UHGV virus genome: UHGV-1519562
Source: a virus
Direction: 5' to 3' (one strand)
Length of the DNA stretch: 64,000 nt
The position numbers and the translations under genes were made by a program. Below the pieces are notes generated by a model that was not told the origin of the DNA, made no database searches, and saw only the letters and a program-made list of their open reading frames with translations. The number at the start of each line of letters is the position of its first letter. The stretch's first letter is position 1. This document shows, in pieces, positions 2,871 through 51,820 of the stretch.

Positions 2871-2910
2871 AGGTCAACAGATTTTGTAACACTGTTGACC
2901 TTTTAAAAAT
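2871..2910 (+). terminator. rho-independent terminator
   Basis: stem AGGTCAACAG / CTGTTGACCT followed by T-run. Confidence 0.6.
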
Positions 2911-2923
2911 TTTATGATATAAT
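2895..2923 (+). promoter_or_regulatory. sigma70-like promoter (-35 TTGACC, 17 bp, extended -10 TGnTATAAT) with conserved leader
   Basis: hexamers and spacing read directly; member of repeated promoter family. Confidence 0.5.
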
Positions 2924-2956
2924 ATTTATAGAAAATAAAAAAGGAGTTTTAAAAGT

Positions 2957-5158: not shown

Positions 5159-5935
5159 ATGTTATATAGTTTAAATACAAGATTAAAAAAACTAATGCCA
5201 GATGAAATCAAATGTCAAGTAAATAGATTGGGAGACATTTTTGATTTAATTAAAGAAAATCCAGATATTAGATGTAATATTCAATACACTAATATGGGCG
5301 AATTATCTGAAAAAAAATTAGATGAACAAATTGATTTTATTAAAGAAGTGGCAAAAGATTATACAATAGCTGTAATTAATTTCCAAGATTTGCGGAAATT
5401 AAAAGCAAAAGGCTATAATGTATATTTAGATTTGCCGGTTTCAGATTGGGAAACTTTTAATAATTTAAAAAATATTGGGGTTTCAGATATTTATATTGAC
5501 GGAGCTTTAGGATTCCAAATGGAAAAAATTGGAAAAGCAAAAGGAAAAATAAAGATTAGAGTTACTCCGCACATGTCGCCAAACGCGCAATGGTCATTTT
5601 CAGATAATGAAAATTCTTTTTATATTCGACCAGAAGATATAGATAATTATTCTAAATATGTAGATATTTTAGACTTTAGAGATAACAGTAAAGATGCAGA
5701 AGAAACTTTATTCAATATTTATAAAAGGAAGATTTTTCCTTTTGATTTAAATAATTTAATTAGACAATTGAATTTACCAACTAATAATATTTATATTGCA
5801 AATAGCTTTTGTTCAAACAGATTGAATTGCGGGCAAAGATGTCAAGAGCCAGATATTTCTTGCCATTTATGTAGAAACGCAATTTTAATTTCTAATAAAA
5901 TGAATGAATATATTAGTTTAACAGAAAAAAATTGA
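5159..5935 (+). CDS. hypothetical protein with C-terminal Cys cluster
   Basis: 258 aa ORF; AAAGGAG RBS. Confidence 0.7.
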   Translation: MLYSLNTRLKKLMPDEIKCQVNRLGDIFDLIKENPDIRCNIQYTNMGELSEKKLDEQIDFIKEVAKDYTIAVINFQDLRKLKAKGYNVYLDLPVSDWETFNNLKNIGVSDIYIDGALGFQMEKIGKAKGKIKIRVTPHMSPNAQWSFSDNENSFYIRPEDIDNYSKYVDILDFRDNSKDAEETLFNIYKRKIFPFDLNNLIRQLNLPTNNIYIANSFCSNRLNCGQRCQEPDISCHLCRNAILISNKMNEYISLTEKN

Positions 5936-5960
5936 TTTTTTTTAAAAAATATAATATAAT
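5932..5960 (+). promoter_or_regulatory. sigma70-like promoter (-35 TTGATT, 17 bp, -10 TATAAT)
   Basis: read directly. Confidence 0.45.
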
Positions 5961-5986
5961 ATTTATATAATAAAAGAAATAATAAG

Positions 5987-6020
5987 TTTTATAAAACTCA
6001 CCTTTGGTGAGTTTTATAAA
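5987..6020 (+). other. stable hairpin in 5' UTR of 6045 gene (attenuator or terminator-like)
   Basis: ATAAAACTCACC-TTT-GGTGAGTTTTAT; core shared with hairpin at ~34510. Confidence 0.4.
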
Positions 6021-6044
6021 ACAAATAAGAAAGATGGGGATGAT

Positions 6045-6770: not shown

Positions 6771-8031
6771 ATATTCTCAAAATTATTCTTTTCCTCTTGA
6801 TTGTAAAGAAATAATTACTTCTTGGGAAATTAATAAAGCTAAATTGAACAAAGAATATTTGAACGAAAAAATTACTTTACAATTAACTAATGAACCAGTA
6901 TCTATTACTCTTGATGAAACCTTTAGAAGAGATAGTTTTTTTGAATTTATTGATAAAGTTATGAATTTGTTGGAACCATCTGAAGATGCTCCAGATAGTG
7001 AAATAGAACTATATTACAATTTTTATGATTTTCTTAGTGATAATGTAAATAATTTTTATTCTAATATTGTTACTTCAGATTTTTTAAATATTGTAAAACG
7101 TGGAAGTAAAATTATTAAATCTTTTAAGTATTTTGTTAAAGATAAACAAAAGCTCAGAAAGATCCAGGATATGGCAAGTGAGTTAATTCAAACACAAAAA
7201 ATTTCTGGGTATTTATTTGCTTCTATTGATCCATTTGAATTTTTAACTTCTAGTGAGAATAATTGTAATTGGCGTTCTTGTCATTCATTGGATGGAGATT
7301 ATCGTGCAGGAAATATTAGTTATATGAATGATCCATCTACCATTATTGTATTTTTAGCAAATGAAGAAAAAATCAATGTAGAATGTTTACCAAAATCTAT
7401 CAAAGTCTATAATAAAAAATGGAGAATGTTAATTCATATAAATCAAAATGATAATATAATTTATTATGGAAGACAATACCCTTCTTATAATAAAAATTTA
7501 TTAGATTTAGTTTATAATAAATTGTTTTATGATAGAGGTTTTATGCCTCCTAAAGAAGTTACTTTTGACCAAATTAATTTAAATCAAGATAATTGTATTG
7601 ATTTAGACCATAATTATATGGCATTAAATAATAAAGTTTTTGATACTTTAGAATTAATTGATATTCCAGAAAATTCGTTGAATTATAATGATATTGTATA
7701 TTCTTCATTTCATCAAACACAGGTTAGTATTAACAAAAAATATAAATATTATTATAGCAAAGATAAACAAAAGACAATAGATTTATTTTTAACTAAAGTT
7801 GGTTATCCTGTTGCTTGCGCTTGTGGATGCGGCAGAAAAGTAAATAATTCGGCAAGCTTTATTTGTGATACTTGTGCAGAAAAATATAATGCTGAAGGAA
7901 ATTTATATCCAATTTGCTCTTGCTGTGGACAAAGAATAAATTTGAAAGATAAACAAAGTTATAAGCAAGAAGAAGAAGGTCTTTATTGTAATCTTTGTTG
8001 TGAGGAATTAAGTCATTTGAACGTCAATTGA
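6736..8031 (+). CDS. large hypothetical protein, paralog of 2957..4630
   Basis: 431 aa ORF; shared core motif; C-terminal CACGCG..CDTC..CSCCG..CNLCC. Confidence 0.75.
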   Translation: MNLQKSLEAAIKYSQNYSFPLDCKEIITSWEINKAKLNKEYLNEKITLQLTNEPVSITLDETFRRDSFFEFIDKVMNLLEPSEDAPDSEIELYYNFYDFLSDNVNNFYSNIVTSDFLNIVKRGSKIIKSFKYFVKDKQKLRKIQDMASELIQTQKISGYLFASIDPFEFLTSSENNCNWRSCHSLDGDYRAGNISYMNDPSTIIVFLANEEKINVECLPKSIKVYNKKWRMLIHINQNDNIIYYGRQYPSYNKNLLDLVYNKLFYDRGFMPPKEVTFDQINLNQDNCIDLDHNYMALNNKVFDTLELIDIPENSLNYNDIVYSSFHQTQVSINKKYKYYYSKDKQKTIDLFLTKVGYPVACACGCGRKVNNSASFICDTCAEKYNAEGNLYPICSCCGQRINLKDKQSYKQEEEGLYCNLCCEELSHLNVN

Positions 8032-8056
8032 ATTTTTAATAAAAATATATTATAAT
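8028..8056 (+). promoter_or_regulatory. sigma70-like promoter (-35 TTGAAT, 17 bp, -10 TATAAT) plus conserved leader
   Basis: read directly. Confidence 0.5.
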
Positions 8057-8238
8057 ATATTTAGAAAATTAAGAAAGGAATAAAATATGACTGTAAAAGA
8101 GCATGAAGTAAAAGTTTTTAAATGGCATTATACTTTAGTTAAAAGTTCAGCCATTTTTATTTAAAAGATTTTATTAATCAAAATGTTTCAGATATTGATT
8201 ATTATATTGCTGATAATAATGAAAGTAATAAAATTATT

Positions 8239-8544
8239 TTGAATATTAATGGAGTAGAGTATCGTCTTTTGATTAATGATTATCTTCTTTATGATCCTTA
8301 TTATAATACTTTTGTCATATTAGAAAAATCTCCAGAATTTCTTTTTAAAGAATATGAAAAAGATTATGTTATTAAATTTTTAGATAATTATATTGGTAAA
8401 AATCTTCACGATATAACAACTATTTTTAGTTGTGCGAGACATTTTTCTTCTAAAGAAAAAGCTGAAAAGGTAGTAGATTTTTTGAGTAATAATTTTAACA
8501 CTGATAGAGCTTGTTTTAAAATTATTAACTTAAATGAGGAATAA
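8239..8544 (+). CDS. hypothetical protein, tandem paralog 1 (N-terminal part may lie upstream in another frame)
   Basis: EYxLLxxDYLxYDxYY motif shared with next ORF. Confidence 0.6.
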   Translation: MNINGVEYRLLINDYLLYDPYYNTFVILEKSPEFLFKEYEKDYVIKFLDNYIGKNLHDITTIFSCARHFSSKEKAEKVVDFLSNNFNTDRACFKIINLNEE

Positions 8545-8546
8545 TT

Positions 8547-8843
8547 ATGAGTAATACTATTGAACAAAAAGTTAAAATATTTTGTTGGAGTGTTCTTATT
8601 GACAAAAAATTATCTATTTTTTGTTTAGAAGATTTTTTGAATAATATTAACAATATTTCTTTTTATATTTTTATAAGCACTCATAATGATATTATTCATT
8701 TTAAAATTAATGAAAAAGAATATGTTCTCTTAATGGGAGATTATTTGGTTTATGATTCTTATTATGAGAATTTTGCTATATTTCATAAACTTCCAAAATA
8801 TATTCGTAAAATGCAACAAATTGAAAATTTAAAAAATAAATGA
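8547..8843 (+). CDS. hypothetical protein, tandem paralog 2
   Basis: 98 aa ORF; motif EYVLLMGDYLVYDSYY. Confidence 0.6.
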   Translation: MSNTIEQKVKIFCWSVLIDKKLSIFCLEDFLNNINNISFYIFISTHNDIIHFKINEKEYVLLMGDYLVYDSYYENFAIFHKLPKYIRKMQQIENLKNK

Positions 8844-8849
8844 TATAAT
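8821..8849 (+). promoter_or_regulatory. sigma70-like promoter (-35 TTGAAA, 17 bp, TGnTATAAT) plus leader ATATATACAAAGTTAAGAAAGGA
   Basis: read directly. Confidence 0.55.
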
Positions 8850-8884
8850 ATATATACAAAGTTAAGAAAGGAATAAAAAAAATA

Positions 8885-24212: not shown

Positions 24213-24245
24213 AAAAATTTATATTATAATATATATAGAAATTAA
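24212..24245 (+). promoter_or_regulatory. promoter-family copy (AT-rich upstream, -10 TATAAT, leader ATATATAGAAATTAAGAAAGGA)
   Basis: consensus AAAAATTTATATTATAATATATATAGAAA after terminator. Confidence 0.45.
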
Positions 24246-24339
24246 GAAAGGAATTGATGTTTATGAAATTATGGGTGGATGATATTCGGCCTGCGCTGCT
24301 GGTTATATTTGGGCTAAATCTGTTGAACAAGCGAAAACT

Positions 24340-24597
24340 ATGATTTCTTTTGCTCAAAATGGTTTTTTAATTGGATTAACTGATGATATTTTTCTTGATT
24401 TAATATCTCTCGACCATGATGCTGGAGATTTTGCTTCTGATGGTGGTGATTATATTGAAATTTTAAATTGGTTAGAAAGGGTTCAAAATGCTTTTGCTTG
24501 GCCTCTTTCTTGTAAATTTCATCTTCATTCCCAAAATCCTGTGGGAGTTCAAAATATGAGGAGAATTATTCAACATAATCACTGGGAGGAGATTTAA
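24340..24597 (+). CDS. conserved small phage protein, apparently frameshifted (N-terminal MKLWVDDIRPA segment in another frame from ~24257)
   Basis: track ORF lacks the conserved N-terminus, which is readable upstream in a different frame. Confidence 0.4.
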   Translation: MISFAQNGFLIGLTDDIFLDLISLDHDAGDFASDGGDYIEILNWLERVQNAFAWPLSCKFHLHSQNPVGVQNMRRIIQHNHWEEI

Positions 24598-24598
24598 T

Positions 24599-25495
24599 AT
24601 GAATAATTATCAAAATTTATATAATATTATTAAAACTATTTATATCCAAAAGCAAGAAGAAAAATCTACCAATTATCATTCTTATATCGAAATTCAAACA
24701 AGAGTAATGGAGCATTACCAAGAAGCTTTAAAAATTTTTCCTAAAGAAAATATTCTTGGTATTTTTTATCAAGGCGCCGCGAATTATGGTCTTGATACTG
24801 TAAATTCTGATGTTGATACTAAATGTCTTATTATTCCTACTATTGAAGATTTGGCTTTTAATAAAAAACCAGTAAGTTATACTCATGTTTTAAATAATAA
24901 TGAACACATTGATTTTAAAGATGTGCGGCTTTATATGAATGAGTTCCGCAAACAGAATATTAATTTTTTAGAAATTTTATACACTGATTATTGTTATGTA
25001 AATCCAAAATATCAATCTTTTTGGAATAAATTAATTTCTAAAAGAGATGAAATTGCTCATTATGATGAATTTAGAGCTTTAAATAGTATGCTTGGTATAA
25101 TGCAAAATGAGATTAATCGCATGTTTAAACCAACAGAGAGTCGAAAAGAAGTTGTAGAAAAATTTGGCTATGACCCAAAATGTTTTAGTCATTTAAATAG
25201 ACTTAGATTATTTTATAGTTGTTACTTGAATGATTCTTATTCTATTTGTTTAAAGTGTTATGATAGTTTTTGGAGAGAAAGATTAATCTTTTATAAAAAT
25301 GGATATGAAGATTTAAGTTTTGTAAAAATTTTTGTTGAAGATCAGCAAGAATGGGTAAAAAACCAGTATGAACGATTAAGTAATGAAAGAAAAAATTATT
25401 CTATCAATATAGAAATTTCTAATTACATGGATGAAGTATTATTAAATATTATTGAAAATTATTTGTGTTCATATTTTCAACCTACTGCTTTTTAA
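24599..25495 (+). CDS. nucleotidyltransferase-fold protein (Pol beta superfamily)
   Basis: QGAANYGLDTVNSDVDT fits the G[GS]x9-13Dh[DE] signature; second acidic motif IDFKDVR. Confidence 0.5.
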   Translation: MNNYQNLYNIIKTIYIQKQEEKSTNYHSYIEIQTRVMEHYQEALKIFPKENILGIFYQGAANYGLDTVNSDVDTKCLIIPTIEDLAFNKKPVSYTHVLNNNEHIDFKDVRLYMNEFRKQNINFLEILYTDYCYVNPKYQSFWNKLISKRDEIAHYDEFRALNSMLGIMQNEINRMFKPTESRKEVVEKFGYDPKCFSHLNRLRLFYSCYLNDSYSICLKCYDSFWRERLIFYKNGYEDLSFVKIFVEDQQEWVKNQYERLSNERKNYSINIEISNYMDEVLLNIIENYLCSYFQPTAF

Positions 25496-25507
25496 GGAGG
25501 AATTCTA

Positions 25508-26254
25508 GTGAAACAGTATTTTATCACTGGGGATACGCACGGTAAAAATTATCAACGTATTTGTCAAATGATTGAACAATATTCTTGCTCTCCTAAAAAT
25601 TCTTCTCTTATTATTCTTGGAGACGCAGGATTTAATTTTTGGTTAGATAAAAAAGAGCAAAAGTGGAAGAAAAGAGTAAATGATTTAGGATATTCGATTT
25701 ATTGTGTGCGGGGAAACCATGAAGAGCATCCTAAAAATTTACCTAATATTCAAGAAATTTGGGATGCAGAAATTCAAGGTTGGATTTATATTCAACCAGA
25801 TTTTCCTAACCTTAAATATTTGATTGACGGAAATACTTACTACTTTAATAGTCATTCTGCTATTGTTCTTGGTGGTGCTTATTCGGTTGATAAACATTAT
25901 AGATTAATGCAGGCTACTTTGAATCGTACCGATGATTGGACTGGTTGGTTTCCTGATGAACAATTAACACAGCAAGAGATGTTAGATATTAACAATAAAG
26001 TGATTAATCATCATTATGATTTAGTTCTATCTCATACTTGTCCTTTTGATTGGCGTCCTACTGCTTTATTTCTTCCTGGAATTGATCAATCTACTATTGA
26101 TAATACTATGGAAATTTGGATGAATGATTTAAAAGATAAGTTTTCTTGGAATAATTGGTTCTGGGGACACTTTCACGCAAATACAGATTACTATGATGGT
26201 AGATATATGTTATTTGAAAATATTTATAATTTAGAGGATTTAATTAATGATTGA
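25508..26254 (+). CDS. calcineurin-like metallophosphoesterase
   Basis: motifs GDTHG, GDAGFN, RGNHE, GHFH; GTG start after AAGGAGG RBS. Confidence 0.7.
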   Translation: MKQYFITGDTHGKNYQRICQMIEQYSCSPKNSSLIILGDAGFNFWLDKKEQKWKKRVNDLGYSIYCVRGNHEEHPKNLPNIQEIWDAEIQGWIYIQPDFPNLKYLIDGNTYYFNSHSAIVLGGAYSVDKHYRLMQATLNRTDDWTGWFPDEQLTQQEMLDINNKVINHHYDLVLSHTCPFDWRPTALFLPGIDQSTIDNTMEIWMNDLKDKFSWNNWFWGHFHANTDYYDGRYMLFENIYNLEDLIND

Positions 26255-26576
26255 TGGCGTTACAGTTTTAAAACAATATGATTTTACTTTGGACGCAAAT
26301 TTAATTATTATTCTTAGTATTTTAACTGGTATATTGTTTTTCTTTTTAGTTAAAATGCTTTGGTTTGATATGAAACCTGAAGGAAATTTAATACCTCTTA
26401 TATGGGGAGTAACGATTGGTTTATTAGCTGCTTTTTATTTAAAATCTGATGATTCTTCTCCTTGTCGTTATGATGTTATTATAGATGATTCTGTTTCAGT
26501 TAATGAATTATATAAAGATTATGAAATATTAAAAGTAGAAGGAAAAATTTATACAATTACTTTAAGGGAGAAATAA
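26247..26576 (+). CDS. small membrane protein
   Basis: hydrophobic segments LIIILSILTGILFFFLV and GVTIGLLAAFYL. Confidence 0.5.
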   Translation: MIDGVTVLKQYDFTLDANLIIILSILTGILFFFLVKMLWFDMKPEGNLIPLIWGVTIGLLAAFYLKSDDSSPCRYDVIIDDSVSVNELYKDYEILKVEGKIYTITLREK

Positions 26577-26578
26577 TA

Positions 26579-27097
26579 ATGACTAATAAATATGAAGCAC
26601 GAATTTTCCCCAATGGACGTATCGCGTTTTATAAAAGCAAAGATTTAGAAGATGCCATCAAAGCTGATAAAGAATTGTTGATTGTATGTAATTGTCATAC
26701 TGGTGGAAGCACTTTAGCTATGGGCGCCCACAAAATGCCCGATCGGAATAATCCTGATGAAACTATCACATTTTTATACAACTCAAGCATCAGCCGTCAA
26801 GTATTTACAGGAGAAGAAATGAATCGTTTTTATAAGGTTATTTTTACTCCTGGCGAAAGGATTTTTGATAATAACTCTGACTATGCTACACGATATGACT
26901 ATGGCCACCATTGTTTCTATAATGGCAGCAAAAAAATGAAAGTAAATGAGGAAATGACTGCGCGTTATCTCAATAAAGAACAAGTAAAAGCAATGATTGG
27001 AATTGGTGTTTTTACTGAAAAGGCATTGGATTACTGTATTGAAGCAATAAGTAATAAAAATGCTATCGAAGATTCTGTAAACGAATGTTCTAGTTAA
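26579..27097 (+). CDS. hypothetical protein
   Basis: 172 aa ORF. Confidence 0.55.
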   Translation: MTNKYEARIFPNGRIAFYKSKDLEDAIKADKELLIVCNCHTGGSTLAMGAHKMPDRNNPDETITFLYNSSISRQVFTGEEMNRFYKVIFTPGERIFDNNSDYATRYDYGHHCFYNGSKKMKVNEEMTARYLNKEQVKAMIGIGVFTEKALDYCIEAISNKNAIEDSVNECSS

Positions 27098-27121
27098 AAA
27101 GAAATTTATTTTAAATTTAAG

Positions 27122-27160
27122 GACAAAACTTTTAAAAGTTTTGTCATTAATTTATTTTTT
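27122..27160 (+). terminator. terminator-like hairpin
   Basis: stem GACAAAACTTTT / AAAAGTTTTGTC, T-run slightly downstream. Confidence 0.5.
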
Positions 27161-27200
27161 TAAAAAAATATTATATAATATATATAGAAAGTTAAGGAAT
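27160..27200 (+). promoter_or_regulatory. promoter-family copy with conserved leader
   Basis: AAAAAAATATTATATAATATATATAGAAAGTTAAGGAA. Confidence 0.45.
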
Positions 27201-27229
27201 AAATAAATAAGAAAGAGGTTGAAATTTTT

Positions 27230-27499
27230 ATGATTTATAGAAAAAGCAAATATAGTAAAGATCAGACTGCAATTTGGCAAGGTGAAACCGCGGTTATTCT
27301 TGCCCAATCAGCAGAAGCTATGACAATAGATGAAATTAAAAAGAATAGTATTCAATTAACAGGTGTTTCTACTCAAAAAATGGCTAGGATTCTTGGGCAT
27401 TTAATTGAAATGGGTATGGTAACAAAAGCAAAAAGCAAAAGTGGTAAAATGGTCTATAAATCTTTAGCAGTTATGGAAGCACAAGGCTATGAAATTTAA
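27230..27499 (+). CDS. putative winged-helix DNA-binding protein
   Basis: MTIDEI...GVSTQKMARILGHLIEMGMV resembles an HTH; weak. Confidence 0.4.
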   Translation: MIYRKSKYSKDQTAIWQGETAVILAQSAEAMTIDEIKKNSIQLTGVSTQKMARILGHLIEMGMVTKAKSKSGKMVYKSLAVMEAQGYEI

Positions 27500-27518
27500 A
27501 TAAAGGAGTTTGATATTT

Positions 27519-28787
27519 ATGGCATACTATGGTTTAGTAACTAAAATTGAGAATGTAAGAAAAGACCCTAATTCTGATAGACTCTATTTAGCTGACTGTT
27601 TTAGAGAAGGAGTTATTGTAGGCCCTGATATAAAGGAAGGTGAGTTAGTTCTTTATCTTCCTACTGATGGAGCTATTGAGCGTTGGTTTGGTGATGAGTT
27701 TAAGCTTTTCCGCAAGAATTTAGATGGCACCGCACAAGGTGGTTATTTGGAAAATAATGCTCATATTAGAGCAATTAAGCTGAGAGGTAATGAATCTTCT
27801 GGTATTGTTATTTCTTATTCTGCTATTGTTGAGCATTTTGGTGAGCAAAATTGGAAAGACGGCGATCAAGTAACTGAAATTAATAATAAACTGTTTTGTT
27901 ATAAATATATTCCTAGACCTTCGGCTACTCCTCGCACTACTCCTAAGACTTCTTATAAAGGTCGTAAAGCAGCTGGAATTAAGTATCCTGATTTTGCTAT
28001 GCACATTGATACTGCTCAATTAGCTTACAATCTTGGAATCTTTAGACCTGGAGATAAAATTAATCTAACCCTTAAAATGCATGGAACTAGCCAGCGTAGT
28101 GCATATACTTGGGCAGAATATCCTATGTCTTGGTTTAGAAAACTATTTCATATGAAGCCTAAGAGAAAGTTACAGTATGTTTTAGGTACTCGTAGAACTG
28201 TTGTTACTACTGATGGGGCAGGTTATTATGGTAATGACAAATTTAGATTTAGTCATCATGAAGCTTTAAAACCTTATCTTGATGAAGGTATGGAGGTTTT
28301 TTATGAAGTAGTTGGTTGGTATGGAGCAAAAGAAAATGAAACTATTATGCCAATTGTAGATAATAGTAAAATTAATGACAAGAAATTTATGAAAAAGTTT
28401 GGTAAGTATACTACTTTTTCTTATGGTTGTACTCCTGGTCATTCTGCGATGTGGATTTATAGAATTACTTCTCACAATGGAGAGTATGAATATTCTCCAG
28501 AGGAAATTACTACTTGGTGTAATGAATATGGTTTTAATCGTGTTCCTATCATTGAGGATTTTGAATTTACTACTGTTGATGACTTGCTCGCTAAAATTGA
28601 CAAATATTTTGAAGATATTGTTGATCCAGTTGGTTTAACTCATGTTAAAGAAGGTGTAGTGGTTAGAATCGCTAATAGATGTACTTTTACTGCATTAAAA
28701 CAAAAAACCTGGGAGTTTAAAGTCCTTGAAGGTCTAGTTAAAGATACTGAAACCCAGCCCGATATGGAAGAAGCACAGGAGATTTAA
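27519..28787 (+). CDS. RNA ligase, Rnl2-like (nucleotidyltransferase motif I KxHGT)
   Basis: LTLKMHGTSQ matches the ligase motif I lysine-adenylation signature in its Rnl2-type form; ATG after AAGGAG RBS. Confidence 0.55.
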   Translation: MAYYGLVTKIENVRKDPNSDRLYLADCFREGVIVGPDIKEGELVLYLPTDGAIERWFGDEFKLFRKNLDGTAQGGYLENNAHIRAIKLRGNESSGIVISYSAIVEHFGEQNWKDGDQVTEINNKLFCYKYIPRPSATPRTTPKTSYKGRKAAGIKYPDFAMHIDTAQLAYNLGIFRPGDKINLTLKMHGTSQRSAYTWAEYPMSWFRKLFHMKPKRKLQYVLGTRRTVVTTDGAGYYGNDKFRFSHHEALKPYLDEGMEVFYEVVGWYGAKENETIMPIVDNSKINDKKFMKKFGKYTTFSYGCTPGHSAMWIYRITSHNGEYEYSPEEITTWCNEYGFNRVPIIEDFEFTTVDDLLAKIDKYFEDIVDPVGLTHVKEGVVVRIANRCTFTALKQKTWEFKVLEGLVKDTETQPDMEEAQEI

Positions 28788-28789
28788 AT

Positions 28790-29239: not shown

Positions 29240-29416
29240 TATGTTTTATTTAATAATGACGATTATTTGGGGTATCTTAATGTGTGTTAATGGAGTTTTG
29301 CTATGCGAAACAATTTTACATAATAGATGTCAAGAAAAGAAAATGCGTATTTTCTGGTTCCTCTTTTGCGTATTTTGGTTTATTTTTGAAATCTTGCGGC
29401 TCGGAGGCTTTATTCT

Positions 29417-29635
29417 TTGAAAATTGTAATTGATAAAAAAGATTTTATGGAATATATTCGTGCTATGGTAGATAAGGATTTTGACAATTTTATGTTTGCA
29501 AATCCTTACGCGACAGAAGAAGATTATATTAATTTATATTATTCTTTTGATACAATTCATAATTTAGATGATATTTGTGAAGAAGAATATTGTAGAAGAA
29601 TTATTAATGGTGAAATAGAAGAAATTGAAGATTGA
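29417..29635 (+). CDS. hypothetical protein
   Basis: 72 aa ORF. Confidence 0.45.
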   Translation: MKIVIDKKDFMEYIRAMVDKDFDNFMFANPYATEEDYINLYYSFDTIHNLDDICEEEYCRRIINGEIEEIED

Positions 29636-29640
29636 AAGAA

Positions 29641-29687
29641 TTAAGGGCAAAGATTAAGATCTTTTGCCCTTAATTTATTTTTTTAAA
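29641..29687 (+). terminator. rho-independent terminator
   Basis: stem TTAAGGGCAAAGAT / ATCTTTTGCCCTTAA plus T-run. Confidence 0.65.
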
Positions 29688-29725
29688 AATTTATATTATA
29701 ATATATATAGAAAGTTAAGAAAGGA
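29685..29725 (+). promoter_or_regulatory. promoter-family copy with conserved leader
   Basis: AAAAATTTATATTATAATATATATAGAAAGTTAAGAAAGGA. Confidence 0.45.
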
Positions 29726-29735
29726 ATTGATATTT

Positions 29736-31489: not shown

Positions 31490-31523
31490 AGAATTTTATT
31501 TTTCTCAGAATTTATGATATAAT
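31490..31523 (+). promoter_or_regulatory. promoter-family copy (TGnTATAAT)
   Basis: ATTTATGATATAATTATAAT upstream of 31554 ORF. Confidence 0.4.
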
Positions 31524-31553
31524 TATAATATAAAATAAGATAGGAGAATTTTA

Positions 31554-34508: not shown

Positions 34509-34560
34509 ATGGGTTATAAACTCACCAAAGGTGAGTTTATAACCCTTTATTTGTTTTATT
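34509..34560 (+). terminator. rho-independent terminator after lysis genes
   Basis: stem GGGTTATAAACTCACC / GGTGAGTTTATAACCC plus T-rich tail. Confidence 0.65.
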
Positions 34561-34600
34561 TTTAAAAAAATGATATAATATTATTAAAGAATAAAAGATT
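34561..34600 (+). promoter_or_regulatory. promoter-family copy (extended -10 TGATATAAT)
   Basis: read directly, after terminator. Confidence 0.4.
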
Positions 34601-34658
34601 GATTTATTAATAATATTATACTACTTTTATTTAAGAAAATCAAAGAAGGGAGAATTAA

Positions 34659-35153
34659 ATCATAGGTACTATTATTTACACTGATGGGTCAACTTTAAAA
34701 AATGGTAGTAAAGATGCTTCTGGAGGCTATGGAGTAGTTGTTTACAAGTATCTTAAAGACCCCAAAAATTTACATTTAGTAGATGCTTTTGCTCATCAAA
34801 CTATTGGAACTACAAATAACAGAGAAGAAATGAAAGCTATTCTTTGGGCTTTATATAATTATGGGGTTTCCGCGGATTCTTTTACTTATCCTATTGTTTA
34901 TACAGATTCTTTATATTGTGTAAATACTTTCAATGATTGGATGTATAGGTGGAAAAATAATAACTGGCGAAAAGCAGATAAATCAACTCCTGAAAATTTG
35001 GATTTAATAAAATTTTATGATATAATATATAATAAATGGAATAGAAAGATTGATTTAAAAAAAATTAAAGGTCATGCTGGTATTGAAGGCAATGAACTTG
35101 CTGATGATTTAGCTACTGGTAGAGTGACTGTTAAGGAGGTATTGGGTGAATAA
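34659..35153 (+). CDS. rnhA: ribonuclease H (RNase HI-like); no canonical start codon found in frame
   Basis: IYTDGS...GGYG, REEMKAI, YTDSLY, KGHAG...NELADDLA catalytic motifs; frame opens right after TAA with ATC/ATA codons; track ORF 34830..35153 is only the C-terminal part. Confidence 0.6.
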   Translation: MIGTIIYTDGSTLKNGSKDASGGYGVVVYKYLKDPKNLHLVDAFAHQTIGTTNNREEMKAILWALYNYGVSADSFTYPIVYTDSLYCVNTFNDWMYRWKNNNWRKADKSTPENLDLIKFYDIIYNKWNRKIDLKKIKGHAGIEGNELADDLATGRVTVKEVLGE

Positions 35154-40563: not shown

Positions 40564-40773
40564 ATGACAAAAAAACAAATTAAAAAAATTGCATCTGAAA
40601 TGACTGCATTAGAAAAAATCCATAATGATGGAGACAGTAGTCAAGATCAAATTGCTAAGGCTGAAAAGCGTATTATGCAATTAACAGAAATGATTATGCG
40701 GTTGCCGCACGGTCAAGGCTTTGAAGTTATGGCAGAAATTGATGAAATTATTCAAAAGAATTTGAAAAATTAA
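40564..40773 (+). CDS. hypothetical protein
   Basis: 69 aa ORF. Confidence 0.5.
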   Translation: MTKKQIKKIASEMTALEKIHNDGDSSQDQIAKAEKRIMQLTEMIMRLPHGQGFEVMAEIDEIIQKNLKN

Positions 40774-40800
40774 AATTTTTTTGATATAATATATACATAA
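40772..40800 (+). promoter_or_regulatory. sigma70-like promoter (-35 TTGAAA, 17 bp, TGnTATAAT)
   Basis: read directly. Confidence 0.5.
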
Positions 40801-40886
40801 ATTAAGTTAATAACTATGAAAGAAATAATACTCATAGATTATTATATAAATTAAAAAAATATTTAAATAAAAGGAGATAATTAATT

Positions 40887-41215: not shown

Positions 41216-41875
41216 TTGGGCAAAGTTATTATCCAATCCGCAACTACTAAGAATCCTCTTCATCTTATCGGCGTTGAAGCGGGAGTATGTTGGAACGCAA
41301 AAATCACAAATAAAGATAATAATATCAAAAGAGCTAAAGAATGTATTGAATCTGGGCATGGAAGAGTTATGGAATTTCCACAAGTTTATATGATCCTTGA
41401 AGGATATAGCGCAAAAACTTTGAGAGAATTTTATACTCATATTTCAGGTGGCCCCACACGATTACAGGCATCAACTCGCTATATCAACTATGATTCTTTT
41501 TCTTTTGTTTCTCCTTCTTTTACTTCTAAAGAAATGAAACAAAAATATGAAGAAAGTATGCAGTCGATTGCTCAGAATTATAAAGTATTAGTTGATATGG
41601 GGATGCCGATTGAAGATGCTAGTCTTTTGCTTCCTCTTGGTATGGAAACAAAAGTAGTAGTAAGAACTAATTTGCGGAATTTAGTTGATATGTCCCATCA
41701 AAGAATGTGTAAACGTGCTTATTGGGAATATCAAAATGTTATGCAGGATATAAAAAAAGCACTTGCTATTTACTCAGAAGAATGGAAATATTTGGTAGAT
41801 CACTTATTTGTTCCTAAATGTCAATATTTCGGCAAATGTACCGAGAAGCATTCTTGCGGTAAATTGAAAAATTAA
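41216..41875 (+). CDS. thyX: flavin-dependent thymidylate synthase ThyX-like
   Basis: 219 aa; HISGGPTRLQASTRY region resembles the ThyX RHR...S signature. Confidence 0.55.
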   Translation: MGKVIIQSATTKNPLHLIGVEAGVCWNAKITNKDNNIKRAKECIESGHGRVMEFPQVYMILEGYSAKTLREFYTHISGGPTRLQASTRYINYDSFSFVSPSFTSKEMKQKYEESMQSIAQNYKVLVDMGMPIEDASLLLPLGMETKVVVRTNLRNLVDMSHQRMCKRAYWEYQNVMQDIKKALAIYSEEWKYLVDHLFVPKCQYFGKCTEKHSCGKLKN

Positions 41876-41969
41876 AAAAAATATTATACAATATTTATAG
41901 AAAATAAAAAGAAAAGCCTCTTTTCAGAAGTGGCAATAAAAAAAATAATTAAATCAAAAGGAGAAAATA

Positions 41970-43999: not shown

Positions 44000-44030
44000 A
44001 AGTCAAGAGGATAATCCTCTTGACTTTTGT
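44000..44030 (+). terminator. terminator-like hairpin
   Basis: stem AAGTCAAGAGGA / TCCTCTTGACTT. Confidence 0.55.
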
Positions 44031-44048
44031 TCAAATATATGTTATAAT
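44020..44048 (+). promoter_or_regulatory. sigma70-like promoter (-35 TTGACT, 17 bp, -10 TATAAT), -35 embedded in terminator stem
   Basis: read directly. Confidence 0.45.
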
Positions 44049-44601
44049 ATTAAAAAAGGAAGTGATAAAAATTGCACATAAAGTAAAATGTTTTGTGTGC
44101 GGAAGTACATTTGACCGAGACAAAGAAGAATGTATACCAATTCCTAATAAAAGAAGATATGCACATAAGTTATGTTATGAAAGATATAGTCAAAATATTG
44201 CAGAAGAAGAAAAAAACCGGATTGCTTTAGAAGAATATATTAAACAACTTTTTAATTATGATATAATTCCTAAAGTAGTTTATAAACAAATTAAAGACTA
44301 TGTAAATGAAAATCATTATACTTATTCTGGTATTTTAAAAACTTTAAAATATCATTTTGAAGTAAAAGGTGGAGATTTAGGAAAGGCTCAAGGCAGAATT
44401 GGAATTGTCCCTTATCAGTATGAAAATGCTAGAAATTATTATTATACAATTTGGGAAAATCAGCAAAGAAATGAAAATAAAGAAATAGAAAATTTTATTC
44501 TGCCTACAGAAGAAATTCATATCACTCCCCCTAAAACAAGAGAGCCAATGAGAAAAAGGAAAAGATTTTTTACTTTTTTGGAGGAAGATATGAATGAGTA
44601 A
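44020..44601 (+). CDS. zinc-finger protein; start codon uncertain (no in-frame ATG near RBS)
   Basis: CFVCG...HKLCYERY motif. Confidence 0.45.
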   Translation: MTFVQIYVIILKKEVIKIAHKVKCFVCGSTFDRDKEECIPIPNKRRYAHKLCYERYSQNIAEEEKNRIALEEYIKQLFNYDIIPKVVYKQIKDYVNENHYTYSGILKTLKYHFEVKGGDLGKAQGRIGIVPYQYENARNYYYTIWENQQRNENKEIENFILPTEEIHITPPKTREPMRKRKRFFTFLEEDMNE

Positions 44602-49549: not shown

Positions 49550-51779
49550 TAAACAATACCAAGGATTGCAGATTGCAGTACAAAGATATAGATCTAAAGA
49601 ACCATATACTGTAGTTTCGGGATACGCTGGAACAGGAAAAGCTCAACCCATAGATACTCTTGTTCCCACTCCTACTGGATGGAGAAAATTGGGTGAACTT
49701 AAAATTGGCGATTATGTTTATGATAGAACAGGACAACCCACAAAAATTTTAGGTGTTTTTCCACAGGGCAAAAAACAAGTTTATACTATTTGTTTAAAAG
49801 ATGGTAGAAAAAGTAAATGTGCAGGAGATCACCTATGGACAGTTTTAAATAAGAAAAATCAAGAGCAAACATTAACTACAGAAGAACTTTTAAAAAAAGG
49901 GCTAACTAATAGTGCGGGATTTAAATACGCAGTGCCAAATAATTCTCCTGTTGAGTATCCTCAAATTAATTATTCTATTGATCCATATGTTATTGGAGCT
50001 TTTTTGGGAGACGGATGTTGTAAACAAAGGCAATTAACTCTTTCTTCTGAAAATGAAGAGATACCAAATATAGTAAAAAAATTAATTGGAGCAAAAGAAG
50101 TATGCAGAAATTCTTCACAAAATTATAATTGGACTTTTACTTTTGAAGAGCCTGTAACCAATATTGATAATCCAGCTTATTCTATTTTAAAATTTCAAAC
50201 GAATACTTTTTTTGTAGATTACCAAAAAGAACTTTGTTGCGCAGCTCAAGAAAAAAGTATCCCTGATATTTATAAAAGAGGTTCTATCCAACAACGATTA
50301 GATTTACTTCAAGGGTTATTTGATACAGATGGTTCAATCATTGATAGTGAAAAACGATTTAATGTTCGTTTTACTTCAACCAGTTATCATTTAATTTTAG
50401 ATGTACAAGAAGTTCTTTGGTCTTTAGGTTATAGTTCAACTATTATAAAGGATAAAAGAAGTGAAAAATATACAACTGGTATTTGTTATAATTTAAATGT
50501 TAATATTCCTAATGAAGAAAAATTTAAACTTTTTAGATTACAAAGAAAAAAAGAAATTGCTTATGAAGCTCAAAATTATATTAAACATAAAAATTATACA
50601 AAAAATTCTATCGTAGATATTTTTAAAGAATCACATGAAACAGAAATGGTTTGCATTTATGTTGACAACTCAGAACATTTGTATTTAACAAATGATTATA
50701 TTGTTACTCATAATACAACTTTAGTTAATTTTATTATTGATGCTCTAAATTTAGACAAAGAAAATGATGTAGCTTTTATTGCTTATACAGGTAAAGCCGC
50801 TAAAGTTTTAAAATCAAAAGGTAATAAAAATGCAATGACTGCTCATAAGTTACTTTATAAAGCTGTAAAAAATCCTAATGGAACATATAGATTTTATCCT
50901 AAATTGACTATTGATGATTATAAACTTATTGTGGTGGATGAAGTTTCCATGTTACCTAAAAAAATGTGGGAACTTCTTCTCTCCCATCATATTCCTGTTC
51001 TAGCAACTGGCGACCCCGGCCAATTACCTGCTTTAACAGAAGGAACAGATATTCTAAATAATCCACATGTTTTTCTTGATGAGATTATGCGACAAGCGCA
51101 AGAAAGTGAAATTATTAGATTAAGCATGGATATTAGAAATGGAAAACTTATTAAACCTTTTAAAGGAAAAGAGGTAAATGTAGTTTGTGCTTCTAATTTA
51201 AATCAAGGTATGTTAGCTTGGGCAGATCAGATTATTTGTGCTAAAAATGACACTAGATATTACTTAAATGATGTTTGTCGTAAATTATTCTGGGGTGTTG
51301 ATTCTGGCGCTCTTCCTGTTGTTGGAGATAAAATTATTTGTCTGCATAATGATTGGAAAAAGTTAAATTCTTTAGAAGATCCACTCATTAATGGTGCAAT
51401 TGGAACTATTAAAAATTATAAAGTTTTATATGATAAAAATTTAAAAGATAATATTCTTAAATTAGATTTTATGCCAGAAGAATACGATGATGAAAATTTT
51501 TTAGGGTTATTTTCTATGAATAATGTAGATTATAATCAATTAGTAAATCATACCCCAAGTGTTACTCAAGATAATTATTATCTTTTACCTAAGAATTATA
51601 AGCTTCAAAGTTTTGATTATGGTTATGCAATTACTTGCTGGAAAGCACAAGGCAGCGAATATCAAAAGGTATTGGGTATTGAAGAAAACTTTCCTTTTAA
51701 ACAAGAGGAGCATAAAAGATATTTATATACTTTAGTGACTCGTGCATCTGAAAAACTTACTCTTGTTTTAAAAAATTAA
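49536..51779 (+). CDS. Dda/RecD-like SF1 helicase interrupted by an intein in the Walker A motif
   Basis: GYAGTGK | intein | TTLVNF restores GTGKTT; downstream VVDEVSM and GDPGQLP. Confidence 0.75.
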   Translation: MTLTDKQYQGLQIAVQRYRSKEPYTVVSGYAGTGKAQPIDTLVPTPTGWRKLGELKIGDYVYDRTGQPTKILGVFPQGKKQVYTICLKDGRKSKCAGDHLWTVLNKKNQEQTLTTEELLKKGLTNSAGFKYAVPNNSPVEYPQINYSIDPYVIGAFLGDGCCKQRQLTLSSENEEIPNIVKKLIGAKEVCRNSSQNYNWTFTFEEPVTNIDNPAYSILKFQTNTFFVDYQKELCCAAQEKSIPDIYKRGSIQQRLDLLQGLFDTDGSIIDSEKRFNVRFTSTSYHLILDVQEVLWSLGYSSTIIKDKRSEKYTTGICYNLNVNIPNEEKFKLFRLQRKKEIAYEAQNYIKHKNYTKNSIVDIFKESHETEMVCIYVDNSEHLYLTNDYIVTHNTTLVNFIIDALNLDKENDVAFIAYTGKAAKVLKSKGNKNAMTAHKLLYKAVKNPNGTYRFYPKLTIDDYKLIVVDEVSMLPKKMWELLLSHHIPVLATGDPGQLPALTEGTDILNNPHVFLDEIMRQAQESEIIRLSMDIRNGKLIKPFKGKEVNVVCASNLNQGMLAWADQIICAKNDTRYYLNDVCRKLFWGVDSGALPVVGDKIICLHNDWKKLNSLEDPLINGAIGTIKNYKVLYDKNLKDNILKLDFMPEEYDDENFLGLFSMNNVDYNQLVNHTPSVTQDNYYLLPKNYKLQSFDYGYAITCWKAQGSEYQKVLGIEENFPFKQEEHKRYLYTLVTRASEKLTLVLKN
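49641..50714 (+). mobile_element. intein (358 aa) with LAGLIDADG homing-endonuclease domain
   Basis: starts with Ala after GTGK, ends IVTHN followed by Thr; LAGLIDADG-type motifs IGAFLGDGC and LLQGLFDTDGSI. Confidence 0.7.
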
Positions 51780-51820
51780 AAAAATATGTTATAATATAAT
51801 AAGAAAGGTGTGATAATCTG

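What the first reader, a model, noticed from the sequence alone, without database searches (positions are those of the whole stretch)
8821..8875. Very highly conserved promoter plus leader unit repeated about 20 times
Consensus TTGAAAA(T)TTAAAAAAT(A)AATGATATAATATATATAGAAAGTTAAGAAAGGA: a near-perfect sigma70-type -35 TTGAAA, 17-bp spacer and extended -10 TGnTATAAT, then an almost invariant ~25 nt transcribed leader ending in the RBS. Copies occur upstream of 2957, 6045, 8239, 8885, 9250, 10514, 10853, 17473, 19860 (two in tandem), 20167, 24257, 27230, 29736, 31554, 34659, 40564, 40887, 44020 and 59259. The conserved leader beyond the -10 suggests a common post-transcriptional signal rather than promoter strength alone.
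Basis: seen in the sequence. Interest (0 to 1): 0.5.

Follow-up and report, generated by a model that had tools for sequence, protein, structure and literature searches.

The report
Repeated phage early-promoter expression cassette
The repeated 50-nt unit is real: it is the standard host-type (sigma-A-like) early promoter of a large uncultivated gut/rumen phage, a known kind of phage feature, and its conserved "leader" is mostly part of the promoter rather than a separate RNA signal.

Summary
A PWM finds 23 units in the window, all on the gene strand, and none in shuffled sequence.

The window is the early/DNA-metabolism region of a ~30% GC, tRNA-rich phage with no close cultured relative.

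Each unit reads: -35 TTGA(c/a), a T-run/A-run 17-nt spacer, a Gram-positive TRTG -16 element, TATAAT, then ATATAT-AGAAAG(TTAAG), usually followed by an AAGAAAGGA Shine-Dalgarno and a start codon 25-35 nt after the -10. Seven units abut a terminator hairpin.

The same architecture recurs in many 70-200 kb viral contigs. Its exact 23-mer occurs in more than 150 places there. Those contigs' genes are at most 70% identical to the window's, or unrelated, and units keep their position before orthologous genes.

The block after the -10 is locked to the -10 and not to the start codon. It persists without a start codon. It is as frequent before tRNA genes (8/31) as before ORFs (93/263). It is unstructured. 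Only the GG of the SD depends on a start codon.

I read it as a sigma-A-type early promoter with an optimised discriminator and initial transcribed sequence plus a minimal leader, spread and homogenised like T4 PeSLs and SPO1 early promoters. It is a new member of a known kind.

The parts
8821..8872 (+). Promoter unit (the finding's copy): -35 TTGAAA, 17-nt spacer, TGaTATAAT 8841-8849, predicted +1 at A8856, leader ACAAAGTTAAGAAAGGA, ATG at 8885 (102-aa ORF)
   Evidence: (56.3 bits)
2895..2946 (+). Unit before the 557-aa ORF (ATG 2957); the terminator hairpin 2870-2902 overlaps the -35
   Evidence: 49.0 bits; -14.6 kcal/mol
5932..5983 (+). Unit before the peptidase gene (ATG 6045); 84-nt leader containing a 17-bp hairpin at 5986-6022
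   Evidence: 42.8 bits; -21.7 kcal/mol, z = -5.8
8028..8079 (+). Full-leader unit; ATG at 8087 opens a frameshifted paralogue of ORF 8547-8843
   Evidence: (55.4 bits)
9194..9245 (+). Unit with a ~260-nt leader before the PD-(D/E)XK endonuclease ORF 9484-9939
   Evidence: (50.5 bits)
10459..10510 (+). Unit driving tRNA-Leu(tag), which starts at 10514, 26 nt after the -10; no SD
   Evidence: (39.7 bits)
10722..10773 (+). Unit before the small ORF at 10777 and the downstream tRNA cluster
   Evidence: (45.4 bits)
17411..17462 (+). Unit directly after terminator 17370-17399; ATG at 17473
   Evidence: 55.4 bits; -17.8
19715..19766 (+). First of two tandem full-leader units; no start codon of its own
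   Evidence: (55.0 bits)
19800..19851 (+). Second tandem full-leader unit; ATG at 19860 (64 aa)
   Evidence: 0 mismatches; 55.7 bits
20050..20101 (+). Unit (16-nt spacer) driving the tRNA cluster that begins with tRNA-Leu(taa) at 20167
   Evidence: (29.6 bits)
24202..24253 (+). Full-leader unit directly after terminator 24179-24201; lacks a TTGA -35
   Evidence: 51.2 bits; -15.2
27151..27202 (+). Full-leader unit after terminator 27122-27145. The 5'-proximal AAGGA is a decoy; the real SD and ATG (27230) lie 50 nt after the -10
   Evidence: 51.0 bits; -11.4
29674..29725 (+). Full-leader unit after the terminator at ~29638-29677; ATG at 29736. Its orthologue in the 95% relative is a chimera of paralogous units
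   Evidence: 57.3 bits; -19.3
31495..31546 (+). Divergent-leader unit; ATG at 31554 (145 aa)
   Evidence: (34.7 bits)
34551..34602 (+). Unit after terminator 34511-34545, upstream of the topoisomerase II operon; long leader
   Evidence: 35.6 bits; -25.3
34998..35049 (+).
   Evidence: 28.9 bits; conserved in L128
40505..40556 (+). Unit before the 69-aa ORF (ATG 40564)
   Evidence: (47.2 bits)
40762..40813 (+). Unit with a 96-nt leader before the 88-aa ORF (ATG 40887). Its position is conserved, often as 2-3 tandem copies, in seven distant relatives
   Evidence: (34.0 bits)
41864..41915 (+).
   Evidence: (42.1 bits)
44020..44071 (+). Unit whose -35 TTGACT lies in the descending arm of hairpin 43995-44031; precedes the ORF upstream of the DnaB-like helicase
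   Evidence: 31.9 bits; -17.7
51767..51818 (+).
   Evidence: (33.7 bits)
59199..59250 (+). Unit before the 116-aa ORF (ATG 59259)
   Evidence: (33.4 bits)

Best explanation
The units are this phage's early/middle promoters, read by the host's primary-sigma (sigma-A/sigma-70-type) RNA polymerase. They are built as compact expression cassettes: an optional terminator hairpin, -35 TTGAc, a T-run/A-run 17-nt spacer, a TRTG -16 element, TATAAT, an AT-only discriminator ATATAT, a predicted start at A followed by a purine-rich initial transcribed sequence (AGAAAGTTAAGAAA), and, where a protein gene follows, a Shine-Dalgarno (AGAAAGGA) with the start codon 25-35 nt after the -10, giving a ~20-28-nt unstructured 5' UTR. 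The conservation beyond the -10 has two parts. The first part is a promoter-linked block of about 20 nt, the discriminator plus the initial transcribed sequence. I infer that it tunes open-complex formation and promoter escape, and that it is copied along with the promoter. The second part is an ordinary ribosome-binding site. The near-identity of the 'full' version within the genome and across many diverged phages is best explained by strong selection for a maximal-strength module, combined with exchange or gene conversion between units during phage recombination. Shown here: the motif, its statistics, its geometry, strand and position, its clade-wide and positional conservation, and its linkage to the -10 rather than to translation. 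Inferred: which polymerase reads it, the transcription start site, and the effect of the initial transcribed sequence.
For: Motif statistics. Sigma-70 geometry, with the units as the top consensus matches. The TaTGaTATAAT -16 element and the information budget from motif-independent relatives (63 sites on the gene strand against 7 opposite; spacer 6.2 bits, -16 region 3.3, discriminator 3.7, +1..+6 2.6, +7..+14 1.7, SD zone 1.1). Downstream genes are early or DNA-metabolism functions and tRNAs. No sigma factor or RNAP was found among the 40 larger ORFs (151 aa and above) scanned. Clade-wide occurrence where only the units are alignable. Units keep their position before orthologous genes at 30-60% protein identity. 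The block is locked to the -10 with or without a start codon. It is equally frequent before tRNAs and ORFs (8/31 vs 93/263, p = 0.32) and rare after non-unit TATAAT (19/4343). Leaders are unstructured. Promoter-less genes use other SDs without AGAAAGTTAAG. Exact-leader units precede 59 unrelated protein clusters. Literature: the initial transcribed sequence can change promoter output more than 10-fold, purine content correlates with productive yield, and +2G and GA/GG near +6 favour escape (PMC5961368). Exchange between units: the chimeric orthologue, a homology breakpoint at a unit edge, and 3.6-fold breakpoint enrichment.
Against: There are no transcription data, so promoter use, the start site and timing are all inferred. 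Units 24225, 27174 and 29697 lack a TTGA -35 (TTATTT instead), and unit 17434 has only TTGGAA with an 18-nt spacer; these would depend on the -16/-10 elements. The T-run/A-run spacer and the exact 17-nt post -10 block carry more information than sigma-A recognition is known to need, so an additional reader (protein or RNA-level) is not excluded. The host is unknown. Only ORFs of 151 aa and above were scanned for a phage sigma factor or RNAP, and the rest of the genome lies outside the window. Unit divergence against the 95% relative (2.3%) is no lower than the flanks (2.6%), so there is little power at that distance.
Confidence: 0.75

Rival explanations
1. RNA-level signal. The conserved 5' end AGAAAGUUAAGAAAGGA acts after transcription. 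It could be a 5'-proximal SD-like polypurine stabiliser that holds a 30S subunit near the 5' end and blocks 5'-to-3' decay, a ribosome standby site, or the target of a phage RNA-binding or RNase factor (compare T4 RegA and RegB).
For: The tract lies within ~10-17 nt of the predicted 5' end and is 80-100% purine. AGAAAG and AGAAAGGA are complementary to the extreme 3' end of Firmicute 16S rRNA (3'-UCUUUCCUCC; my own knowledge). Unit 27174 carries a decoy AAGGA at the 5' end with the real SD 25 nt further on, and unit 19738 has the tract with no start codon. SD-like polypurine 5' stabilisers are documented in B. subtilis, including phage SP82 early mRNA (Hue 1995 and STAB-SD, as cited in PMC7509114 and PMC3997798). 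Full-leader units favour small early-type ORFs.
Against: The same block is as frequent before tRNA genes, whose leaders are simply removed. The GG that gives SD strength is lost when no start codon follows. Position +6 is A as often as G, which weakens specific anti-SD pairing. There is no structure. The untranscribed spacer is at least as conserved.
Confidence: 0.2
2. Recombination linker (PeSL-type). The units are conserved chiefly because they act as short homology patches at which co-infecting or replicating phages exchange, delete or insert gene cassettes. Their near-identity would then result from concerted evolution rather than selection on every base.
For: A homology breakpoint between the window and its 95% relative lies exactly at the 3' edge of a unit. 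The orthologous unit 29697/L128:583 differs by 5 clustered changes, each shared with paralogous units 27174 or 24225. 24 of 299 breakpoints between related loci fall inside units, against 2.2% at random. There are tandem duplications of units (19738/19823; 2-3 copies in L126, L129 and L137). Units associate with small ORFans and 7 of 23 abut terminator hairpins.
Against: Three other indels against the relative are not unit-bounded. The breakpoint enrichment is not corrected for the general intergenic bias. Units persist at orthologous positions over deep divergence and keep locus-specific deviations, which argues for in-place function. This model explains the spread of the units, not what they do.
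Confidence: 0.35
3. Operator or specialised-polymerase site. The extra conserved positions (the T-run/A-run spacer and the block around +1) are bound by a phage-encoded regulator that switches early transcription off, or the unit is read by a phage-encoded sigma factor or RNAP rather than by the unmodified host enzyme.
For: The information content exceeds the canonical sigma-A elements. The TnAn spacers are self-complementary. SPO1 encodes regulators of its early promoters (annotations).
Against: The -35, -16 and -10 elements match the primary-sigma consensus nearly perfectly. No sigma factor, RNAP or obvious repressor was found among the scanned ORFs. The exact 23-mer also occurs in a mobile-element context in a bacterial isolate genome, where only host polymerase is expected.
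Confidence: 0.1

Closest known systems
PeSL (promoter-early stem-loop) cassettes of T4-like phages (Arbiol et al. 2010, PMC2839356; Comeau et al. 2014, PMC4122927)
   Same: Dozens of copies per genome of a ~50-100-bp intergenic module that combines a strong sigma-70-type early promoter, a terminator-type stem-loop and an SD plus start codon. They sit preferentially before small ORFans, and there are signs of recombination at the module.
   Different: Only 7 of 23 units carry the stem-loop. There is no conserved AT-rich upstream region (1.3 bits over 25 nt). The phages here are Firmicute-type with a TRTG -16 element. The position-locked post -10 block is not a described PeSL feature. Mini-circles are untested.
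SPO1/SP82 host-takeover early promoters (Bacillus Herelleviridae)
   Same: About 12 near-identical sigma-A early promoters with a conserved spacer and -16 TGTG, each heading a short transcription unit of small early genes, with recurring leader and RBS sequence. I re-derived this from the SPO1 terminal redundancy. SP82 early mRNA carries a polypurine 5' stabiliser.
   Different: The SPO1 consensus is unrelated in sequence. Its leaders are longer and contain hairpins. Canonical leaders here are ~20-28 nt and unstructured. There is no sequence similarity at the genome level.
Phage T5 early promoters (e.g. P_N25) and the initial-transcribed-sequence effect
   Same: These are very strong host-polymerase promoters whose transcribed +1..+20 region contributes to output. 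That is the mechanism I infer for AGAAAGTTAAGAAA (PMC5961368, PMC12464699).
   Different: They belong to an E. coli phage and have a different sequence. The effect was shown by experiment for T5 and is only inferred here.
Start-associated sequences (SAS) of Cluster K mycobacteriophages (Pope et al. 2011; recalled from my own knowledge)
   Same: A short, highly conserved asymmetric motif, repeated many times just upstream of start codons and including the RBS.
   Different: SAS are positioned relative to the start codon and are independent of promoters. The block here is positioned relative to the -10 and also occurs before tRNAs and without start codons.

Membership tests
Primary-sigma (sigma-70/sigma-A) promoter | -35 TTGACA-like and -10 TATAAT hexamers separated by 17 +/- 1 nt | tested here: met
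   11-of-12 matches with 16-18-nt spacers at the units. Three units lack TTGA (24225, 27174, 29697) and 17434 has TTGGAA with an 18-nt spacer.
Primary-sigma (sigma-70/sigma-A) promoter | Gram-positive -16 region TRTG / extended -10 TGn | tested here: met
   The consensus is TaTGaTATAAT in the window and in motif-independent relatives (3.3 bits over 5 nt).
Primary-sigma (sigma-70/sigma-A) promoter | Co-oriented with, and just upstream of, transcription units | tested here: met
   23 of 23 units are on the gene strand, and 63 vs 7 in relatives. The start codon lies 25-35 nt after the -10, or a tRNA 5' end at 26 or 88 nt.
Primary-sigma (sigma-70/sigma-A) promoter | Initiation by host holoenzyme at a mapped start site | not testable with these tools
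   No transcriptome or biochemistry is available. The +1 at the A 7 nt after TATAAT is a prediction.
PeSL cassette | Strong early sigma-70-type promoter plus SD/start in one conserved intergenic module, many copies per genome | tested here: met
PeSL cassette | Stable stem-loop (terminator/attenuator) within or next to the promoter | tested here: inconclusive
   7 of 23 units have a hairpin of -11 kcal/mol or stronger abutting or overlapping the -35. One (5955) has it in the leader. The other 15 have none.
PeSL cassette | [quoted passage not shown] | tested here: not met
   Only 1.3 bits over the 25 nt upstream of the -35. No conserved columns in the window alignment.
PeSL cassette | Preferential association with small ORFans and with indel/replacement breakpoints | tested here: inconclusive
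   The ORF-size bias is met (median 90 vs 117 aa, p = 1e-4). There is one clean breakpoint and one chimeric unit. The 3.6-fold enrichment is not corrected for intergenic bias, and three other indels are not unit-bounded.
PeSL cassette | Formation of cassette mini-circles during infection | not testable with these tools
   Needs inverse PCR or long reads from infected cells.
5' mRNA stabiliser (STAB-SD / SP82 polypurine type) | SD-like polypurine tract close to the mRNA 5' end, independent of the translated start | tested here: inconclusive
   The purine tract persists without a start codon but loses its GG. There are decoy examples at 27174 and 19738. The same block precedes tRNAs.
5' mRNA stabiliser (STAB-SD / SP82 polypurine type) | Increases mRNA half-life through 30S binding | not testable with these tools
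   Requires decay measurements.
SPO1/SP82-type early leader with RNase III hairpin | Stable hairpin in the early leader | tested here: not met
   Canonical leaders fold at -1.3 to -8.4 kcal/mol with z between -1.0 and +1.4. Only the 5955 leader has a strong hairpin.
Mycobacteriophage start-associated sequence (SAS) | Motif at a fixed short distance from the start codon, independent of promoters | tested here: not met
   The block is fixed relative to the -10. It is present without start codons and before tRNAs, and absent from promoter-less genes.

The most novel reading that the evidence does not exclude
The position-locked 5' block (5'-AGAAAGUUAAGAAA) is a clade-wide tag placed on every early primary transcript, pre-tRNAs included. 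A dedicated factor would read it: a phage protein that marks, protects or processes early RNAs, or a specific adaptation of the host polymerase or 30S subunit. On this reading its exact conservation across phages with only ~50% core-protein identity reflects that recognition, not generic promoter strength or recombination.
Probability: 0.12. Interest if true: 0.6.

Novelty: new member of a known kind. Interest (0 to 1): 0.3.

Why it matters
The unit gives a ready marker for early transcription units in a large, uncultivated clade of 70-200 kb gut and rumen phages that probably infect anaerobic Firmicutes. It can be used to delimit early genes and host-takeover ORFans in metagenomic contigs, and to spot phage contigs mis-binned into MAGs. 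It is also a candidate strong, compact promoter/RBS part for genetically difficult gut Clostridia. The clade offers a natural data set of hundreds of variants for studying how spacer, discriminator and initial transcribed sequence shape sigma-A promoter output, and for testing the PeSL idea of promoter-mediated gene shuffling outside T4-like phages. It does not reveal a new kind of mechanism.

Tried and rejected
1. Megablast of 12 kb of the window against cultured phages found no match. blastn of one unit also found nothing, but the low-complexity filter probably masks it, so that result is uninformative.
2. A literature search for the motif strings found only an unrelated yeast paper.
3. I tested whether the full leader is just the phage's general RBS context. 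Rejected: promoter-less genes use AAGGAGG/GGAGG without AGAAAGTTAAG.
4. I tested whether the unit travels with one gene family. Rejected: 59 unrelated clusters follow it.
5. I tested for RNA structure in the leader. Rejected for canonical units. A permissive Rfam scan finds only tRNAs.
6. I looked for a purifying-selection signal against the 95% relative. It was uninformative: 2.3% divergence in units vs 2.6% in flanks.
7. I compared orthologous with paralogous unit similarity as a test of concerted evolution. The result was mixed: the positional orthologue ranked first in 7 of 22 comparisons.
8. I considered that the 271-bp indel at 8547-8817 was unit-mediated. Tandem paralogous ORFs explain it better.
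9. My first SPO1 regex was too strict and found only 2 sites. The relaxed version found 12.
10. Hue et al. 1995 (PMC177050) is not held in the library, so I cite it only through reviews.
11. I considered a phage sigma factor or RNAP in the window. None was found among the 40 scanned ORFs, but small ORFs and the rest of the genome were not scanned.
Full report
**1. What is in the sequence**

The copy named in the finding reads TTGAAA (8821-8826), a 17-nt spacer, TG (8841-8842), TATAAT (8844-8849), then ATATATACAAAGTTAAGAAAGGA, with the ATG at 8885. The 21-nt core, allowing up to 3 mismatches, occurs 12 times. All 12 are on the + strand, against 0.01 expected from dinucleotide shuffles.

I anchored 21 visible copies on the -10 and built a 53-column PWM. 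It scores 23 sites at 25 bits or more, all on the + strand. The best - strand score is 22 bits, and no hit reached 12 bits in five Markov-shuffled windows. The generic sigma-70 scan independently ranks these sites as the 11-of-12 consensus matches on the + strand: 11 of its 12 such matches are units, the exception being one at 20458.

Three were missed: 35021, 41887 (with a TACAAT -10) and 51790. Some gene coordinates need correcting:
- The unit 'upstream of 8239' has its ATG at 8087.
- The unit 'upstream of 10853' serves an ORF starting at 10777.
- 44020 is the -35 hexamer itself.
- 10514 and 20167 are tRNA-Leu 5' ends.

The 'almost invariant 25-nt leader' applies to only 7-8 units. AGAAAGTTAAGAAAGGA with up to 3 mismatches gives 7 hits, all inside units. 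The remaining units share ATaTATAgAAA and then diverge, or have leaders of 50-260 nt.

**2. Genomic context**

The window is ~30% GC, and almost all genes up to ~61.6 kb are on the + strand. It carries 16 tRNA genes in two clusters. It also holds an early/DNA-metabolism gene set:
- topoisomerase II subunits, DNA ligase, a DnaB-like helicase and a Dda-like helicase;
- RecJ, Sak4, DNA polymerase III alpha, anaerobic NrdD with its activase, ThyX, dUTPase and guanylate kinase;
- PhoH and an RNA-repair set (Ro-like protein, nucleotidyltransferase, RNA ligase, kinase, phosphoesterases).

No cultured phage is alignable at the DNA level. Protein hits are 34-39% identical to SPbeta-type, Herelleviridae and other Firmicute phages. 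NrdD and an SLH-domain peptidase point to an anaerobic Firmicute host. No sigma factor or RNA polymerase was found among the 40 larger ORFs scanned.

**3. Anatomy of the unit**

Going 5' to 3':
- Seven of 23 units begin with a strong hairpin (-11 to -25 kcal/mol) followed by T residues. It abuts or overlaps the -35 and is the terminator of the preceding unit.
- Next comes the -35, TTGA(c/a). Three units have TTATTT instead, and one (17434) has TTGGAA with an 18-nt spacer.
- Then a 17-nt spacer with a T-run followed by an A-run.
- Then TaTG, matching the TRTG -16 element of Gram-positive promoters (my own knowledge: Voskuil and Chambliss 1998).
- Then TATAAT, followed by ATATAT.
- Then A-G-A-A-A-G/A. 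The invariant T-A step at nt 6-7 after the -10 predicts +1 = A.
- Then TTAAG, and usually AAAGGA.

In canonical units the start codon lies 25-35 nt after the -10. Across 148 exact-motif sites in other phages this distance peaks at 31-35 nt, most often 33. That gives a 5' UTR of roughly 20-28 nt. These leaders are unstructured, folding at -1.3 to -8.4 kcal/mol with z-scores from -1.0 to +1.4.

**4. The unit is clade-wide**

It also hits 37 stretches in genome collections. Most of those are 130-180 kb contigs in rumen or gut MAG bins with inconsistent taxonomy, which are probably mis-binned phages. One hit is a mobile-element region of the isolate *Massiliimalia massiliensis*.

Only one contig, IMGVR_UViG_3300045988_145614 (137.7 kb), is a close relative at ~95% identity. 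In nearly all the others the only DNA alignable to the window is the set of 50-90-bp units, at 85-90% identity. Their genes are at most ~70% identical or undetectable.

To avoid circularity I fetched 18 loci through the topoisomerase II protein, at 29-99% identity (17 of them at 50-99%). They carry 0-13 units per ~22 kb, almost all on the gene strand. Calling sites there by hexamers alone gives 63 on the gene strand and 7 on the other. The family consensus is TTGAcTTTTTaAAAAAatTaTGaTATAAT-ATATAT-A.AAAA.

Units also keep their position. Orthologues of the genes at 40887 and 41970 and of the topoisomerase operon are preceded by units, often 2-3 in tandem, in relatives with 30-60% protein identity. 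This positional conservation is strong comparative evidence that the units function.

**5. What the conserved 'leader' is tied to**

- Promoter-less genes in the window use AAGGAGG/GGAGG-type SDs and lack AGAAAGTTAAG. The block is therefore not the phage's general RBS context.
- I called sites from the upstream half only, giving 434 unique sites in ~1.4 Mb. ATATATAGAAArTwAArAAA is conserved whether or not a start codon follows at 18-40 nt. Only G at the SD positions drops, from 0.5-0.6 to 0.2-0.3.
- Units that drive tRNA genes keep the block right up to the mature tRNA 5' end, for example in L098, L038, L035 and L021. The 17-nt block with up to 2 mismatches is present at 8 of 31 tRNA-driving units and 93 of 263 ORF-driving units (Fisher p = 0.32). 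It follows only 19 of 4343 TATAAT hexamers outside units.
- Exact-leader units precede 59 unrelated protein clusters.

So the block belongs to the promoter, either functionally or as part of a unit that is copied whole. It is not primarily a translation signal. The SD is an ordinary add-on.

**6. Mechanism**

The most economical reading is a primary-sigma early promoter optimised at every position the polymerase contacts, from the -35 to about +14. Published work on E. coli polymerase shows that the initial transcribed sequence can change promoter output more than 10-fold, that purine content correlates with productive yield, and that +2G and GA/GG near +6 favour escape (PMC5961368). The predicted AGAAAG start fits these preferences. 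This step is an inference.

An RNA-level role remains possible. AGAAAG and AGAAAGGA complement the extreme 3' end of Firmicute 16S rRNA (my own knowledge). SD-like polypurine 5' stabilisers exist in B. subtilis, including phage SP82 early mRNA. Decoy tracts occur at 27174 and 19738. However, the tRNA result, the loss of GG without a start codon, and A/G equivalence at +6 all weigh against it as the main cause.

**7. Why the copies are so alike**

Besides selection, there are signs of exchange between units.
- Against the 95% relative, one homology breakpoint lies exactly at the 3' edge of a unit. The relative has a unit where the window has a different upstream gene.
- The orthologue of unit 29697 differs by five clustered changes. 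Each variant state is shared with paralogous units 27174 or 24225, while the flanks are identical.
- Among locus pairs at 88% identity or more, 24 of 299 breakpoints fall inside units against 2.2% at random positions. This is not corrected for intergenic bias.
- Full-leader units precede smaller ORFs (median 90 vs 117 aa, p = 1e-4).

These are the hallmarks described for PeSL cassettes of T4-like phages (PMC2839356, PMC4122927). Here the stem-loop is present in only a third of units, the upstream AT-rich region is absent, and three other indels are not unit-bounded.

**8. Comparison with known systems**

I re-derived the 12 SPO1 host-takeover early promoters. They are likewise near-identical, including the spacer and the -16 TGTG, and they head short units with recurring leader and RBS sequence. 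'Repeated promoter plus conserved leader' is therefore a classical feature of large Firmicute phages. Kayviruses are reported with ~60 predicted promoters of this sort (PMC6445280).

The present units differ in three ways. Their consensus sequence is different. Their leader is very short and has no hairpin. Their post -10 block is position-locked. Mycobacteriophage start-associated sequences are excluded because they are tied to the start codon.

**9. Verdict**

The promoter interpretation is supported by sequence and comparative evidence. The 'post-transcriptional signal' inference is not supported, though it is not excluded either. This is a new member of a known kind: host-polymerase early-promoter cassettes of large lytic phages, in an uncultivated gut/rumen clade. 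Interest is moderate to low for mechanism. The unit is useful as an annotation marker and as a source of natural promoter variants.

Noticed in passing
window 12158-12230: ARAGORN calls a tRNA with a four-base anticodon (tgaa, 'tRNA-???'). Rfam scores it as a tRNA at 51.4 bits. It could be a frameshift-suppressor-like tRNA or a miscalled anticodon loop.
   Followed up: no
window 21535-31385: There is an apparent RNA/tRNA-repair module next to the second tRNA cluster. It comprises a Ro-like RNA-binding protein (21535-23058), a nucleotidyltransferase (24599-25495), metallophosphoesterases (25508-26254, 30840-31385), an RNA ligase (27510-28787) and an AAA_33 kinase (30325-30837). It may counter host anticodon nucleases.
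   Followed up: partly
window 32898 (inside PhoH-like ORF 32045-33316); L128 4558-5849: The ~95%-identical relative carries a 1292-bp insertion at this point inside the PhoH-like gene, possibly an intron or homing-endonuclease element. A second, 766-bp insertion in the relative lies at window ~29875-29882 (L128 768-1533). Neither is bounded by a promoter unit.
   Followed up: no
window 8087-8544 and 8547-8843: These are tandem paralogous small genes. The first, just after unit 8051, is broken by frameshifts in both the window and the relative, and the two differ in homopolymer run lengths. It is either a decaying paralogue or an assembly error. The relative lacks the second copy (271-bp indel at 8547-8817).
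   Followed up: partly
window 5986-6022 and 34511-34545: Two copies of a similar 16-17-bp-stem hairpin (…TATAAAACTCACCTTTGGTGAGTTTTATA…). One lies inside the leader of unit 5955 (-21.7 kcal/mol, z = -5.8) and may act as an attenuator. The other serves as the terminator just upstream of unit 34574.
   Followed up: partly
window 9250-9483: A ~230-nt ORF-free stretch lies between unit 9217 and the PD-(D/E)XK endonuclease ORF (9484-9939). There is no Rfam match and no significant fold (z = +0.4), so the purpose of this long leader is unknown. A GIY-YIG endonuclease ORF (11476-11952) sits inside the first tRNA cluster.
   Followed up: partly
window 19715-19851; L126 14841-14979; L129 15941-16099; L137 13717-13798: Promoter units occur as tandem arrays of 2-3 copies spaced 68-90 bp apart. 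The arrays in the relatives sit before orthologues of the 88-aa gene at window 40887, which has a 96-nt leader.
   Followed up: partly
window ~61670-64000: The gene orientation switches to the - strand and the GC skew changes sign in the last 2 kb. This marks a module boundary. No promoter units are found on the - strand there.
   Followed up: no
L140, L150, L156, L163 (Methanobrevibacter bins); L147 (Doudnabacteria); L149, L170 (Mollicutes) and others: Contigs of 130-180 kb carrying the unit are filed in MAG bins of very different taxa, including archaea. These are probably phage genomes mis-binned into MAGs, and the unit could serve as a flag for this.
   Followed up: no
L158 2213-2257 (Massiliimalia massiliensis NZ_FUHT01000003.1): One exact copy of the -10 plus leader 23-mer lies in an isolate genome. 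It sits upstream of a helicase-like gene beside an XRE regulator and a serine recombinase, which is a mobile-element context. This is a weak clue that the hosts are Oscillospiraceae-type Clostridia.
   Followed up: partly
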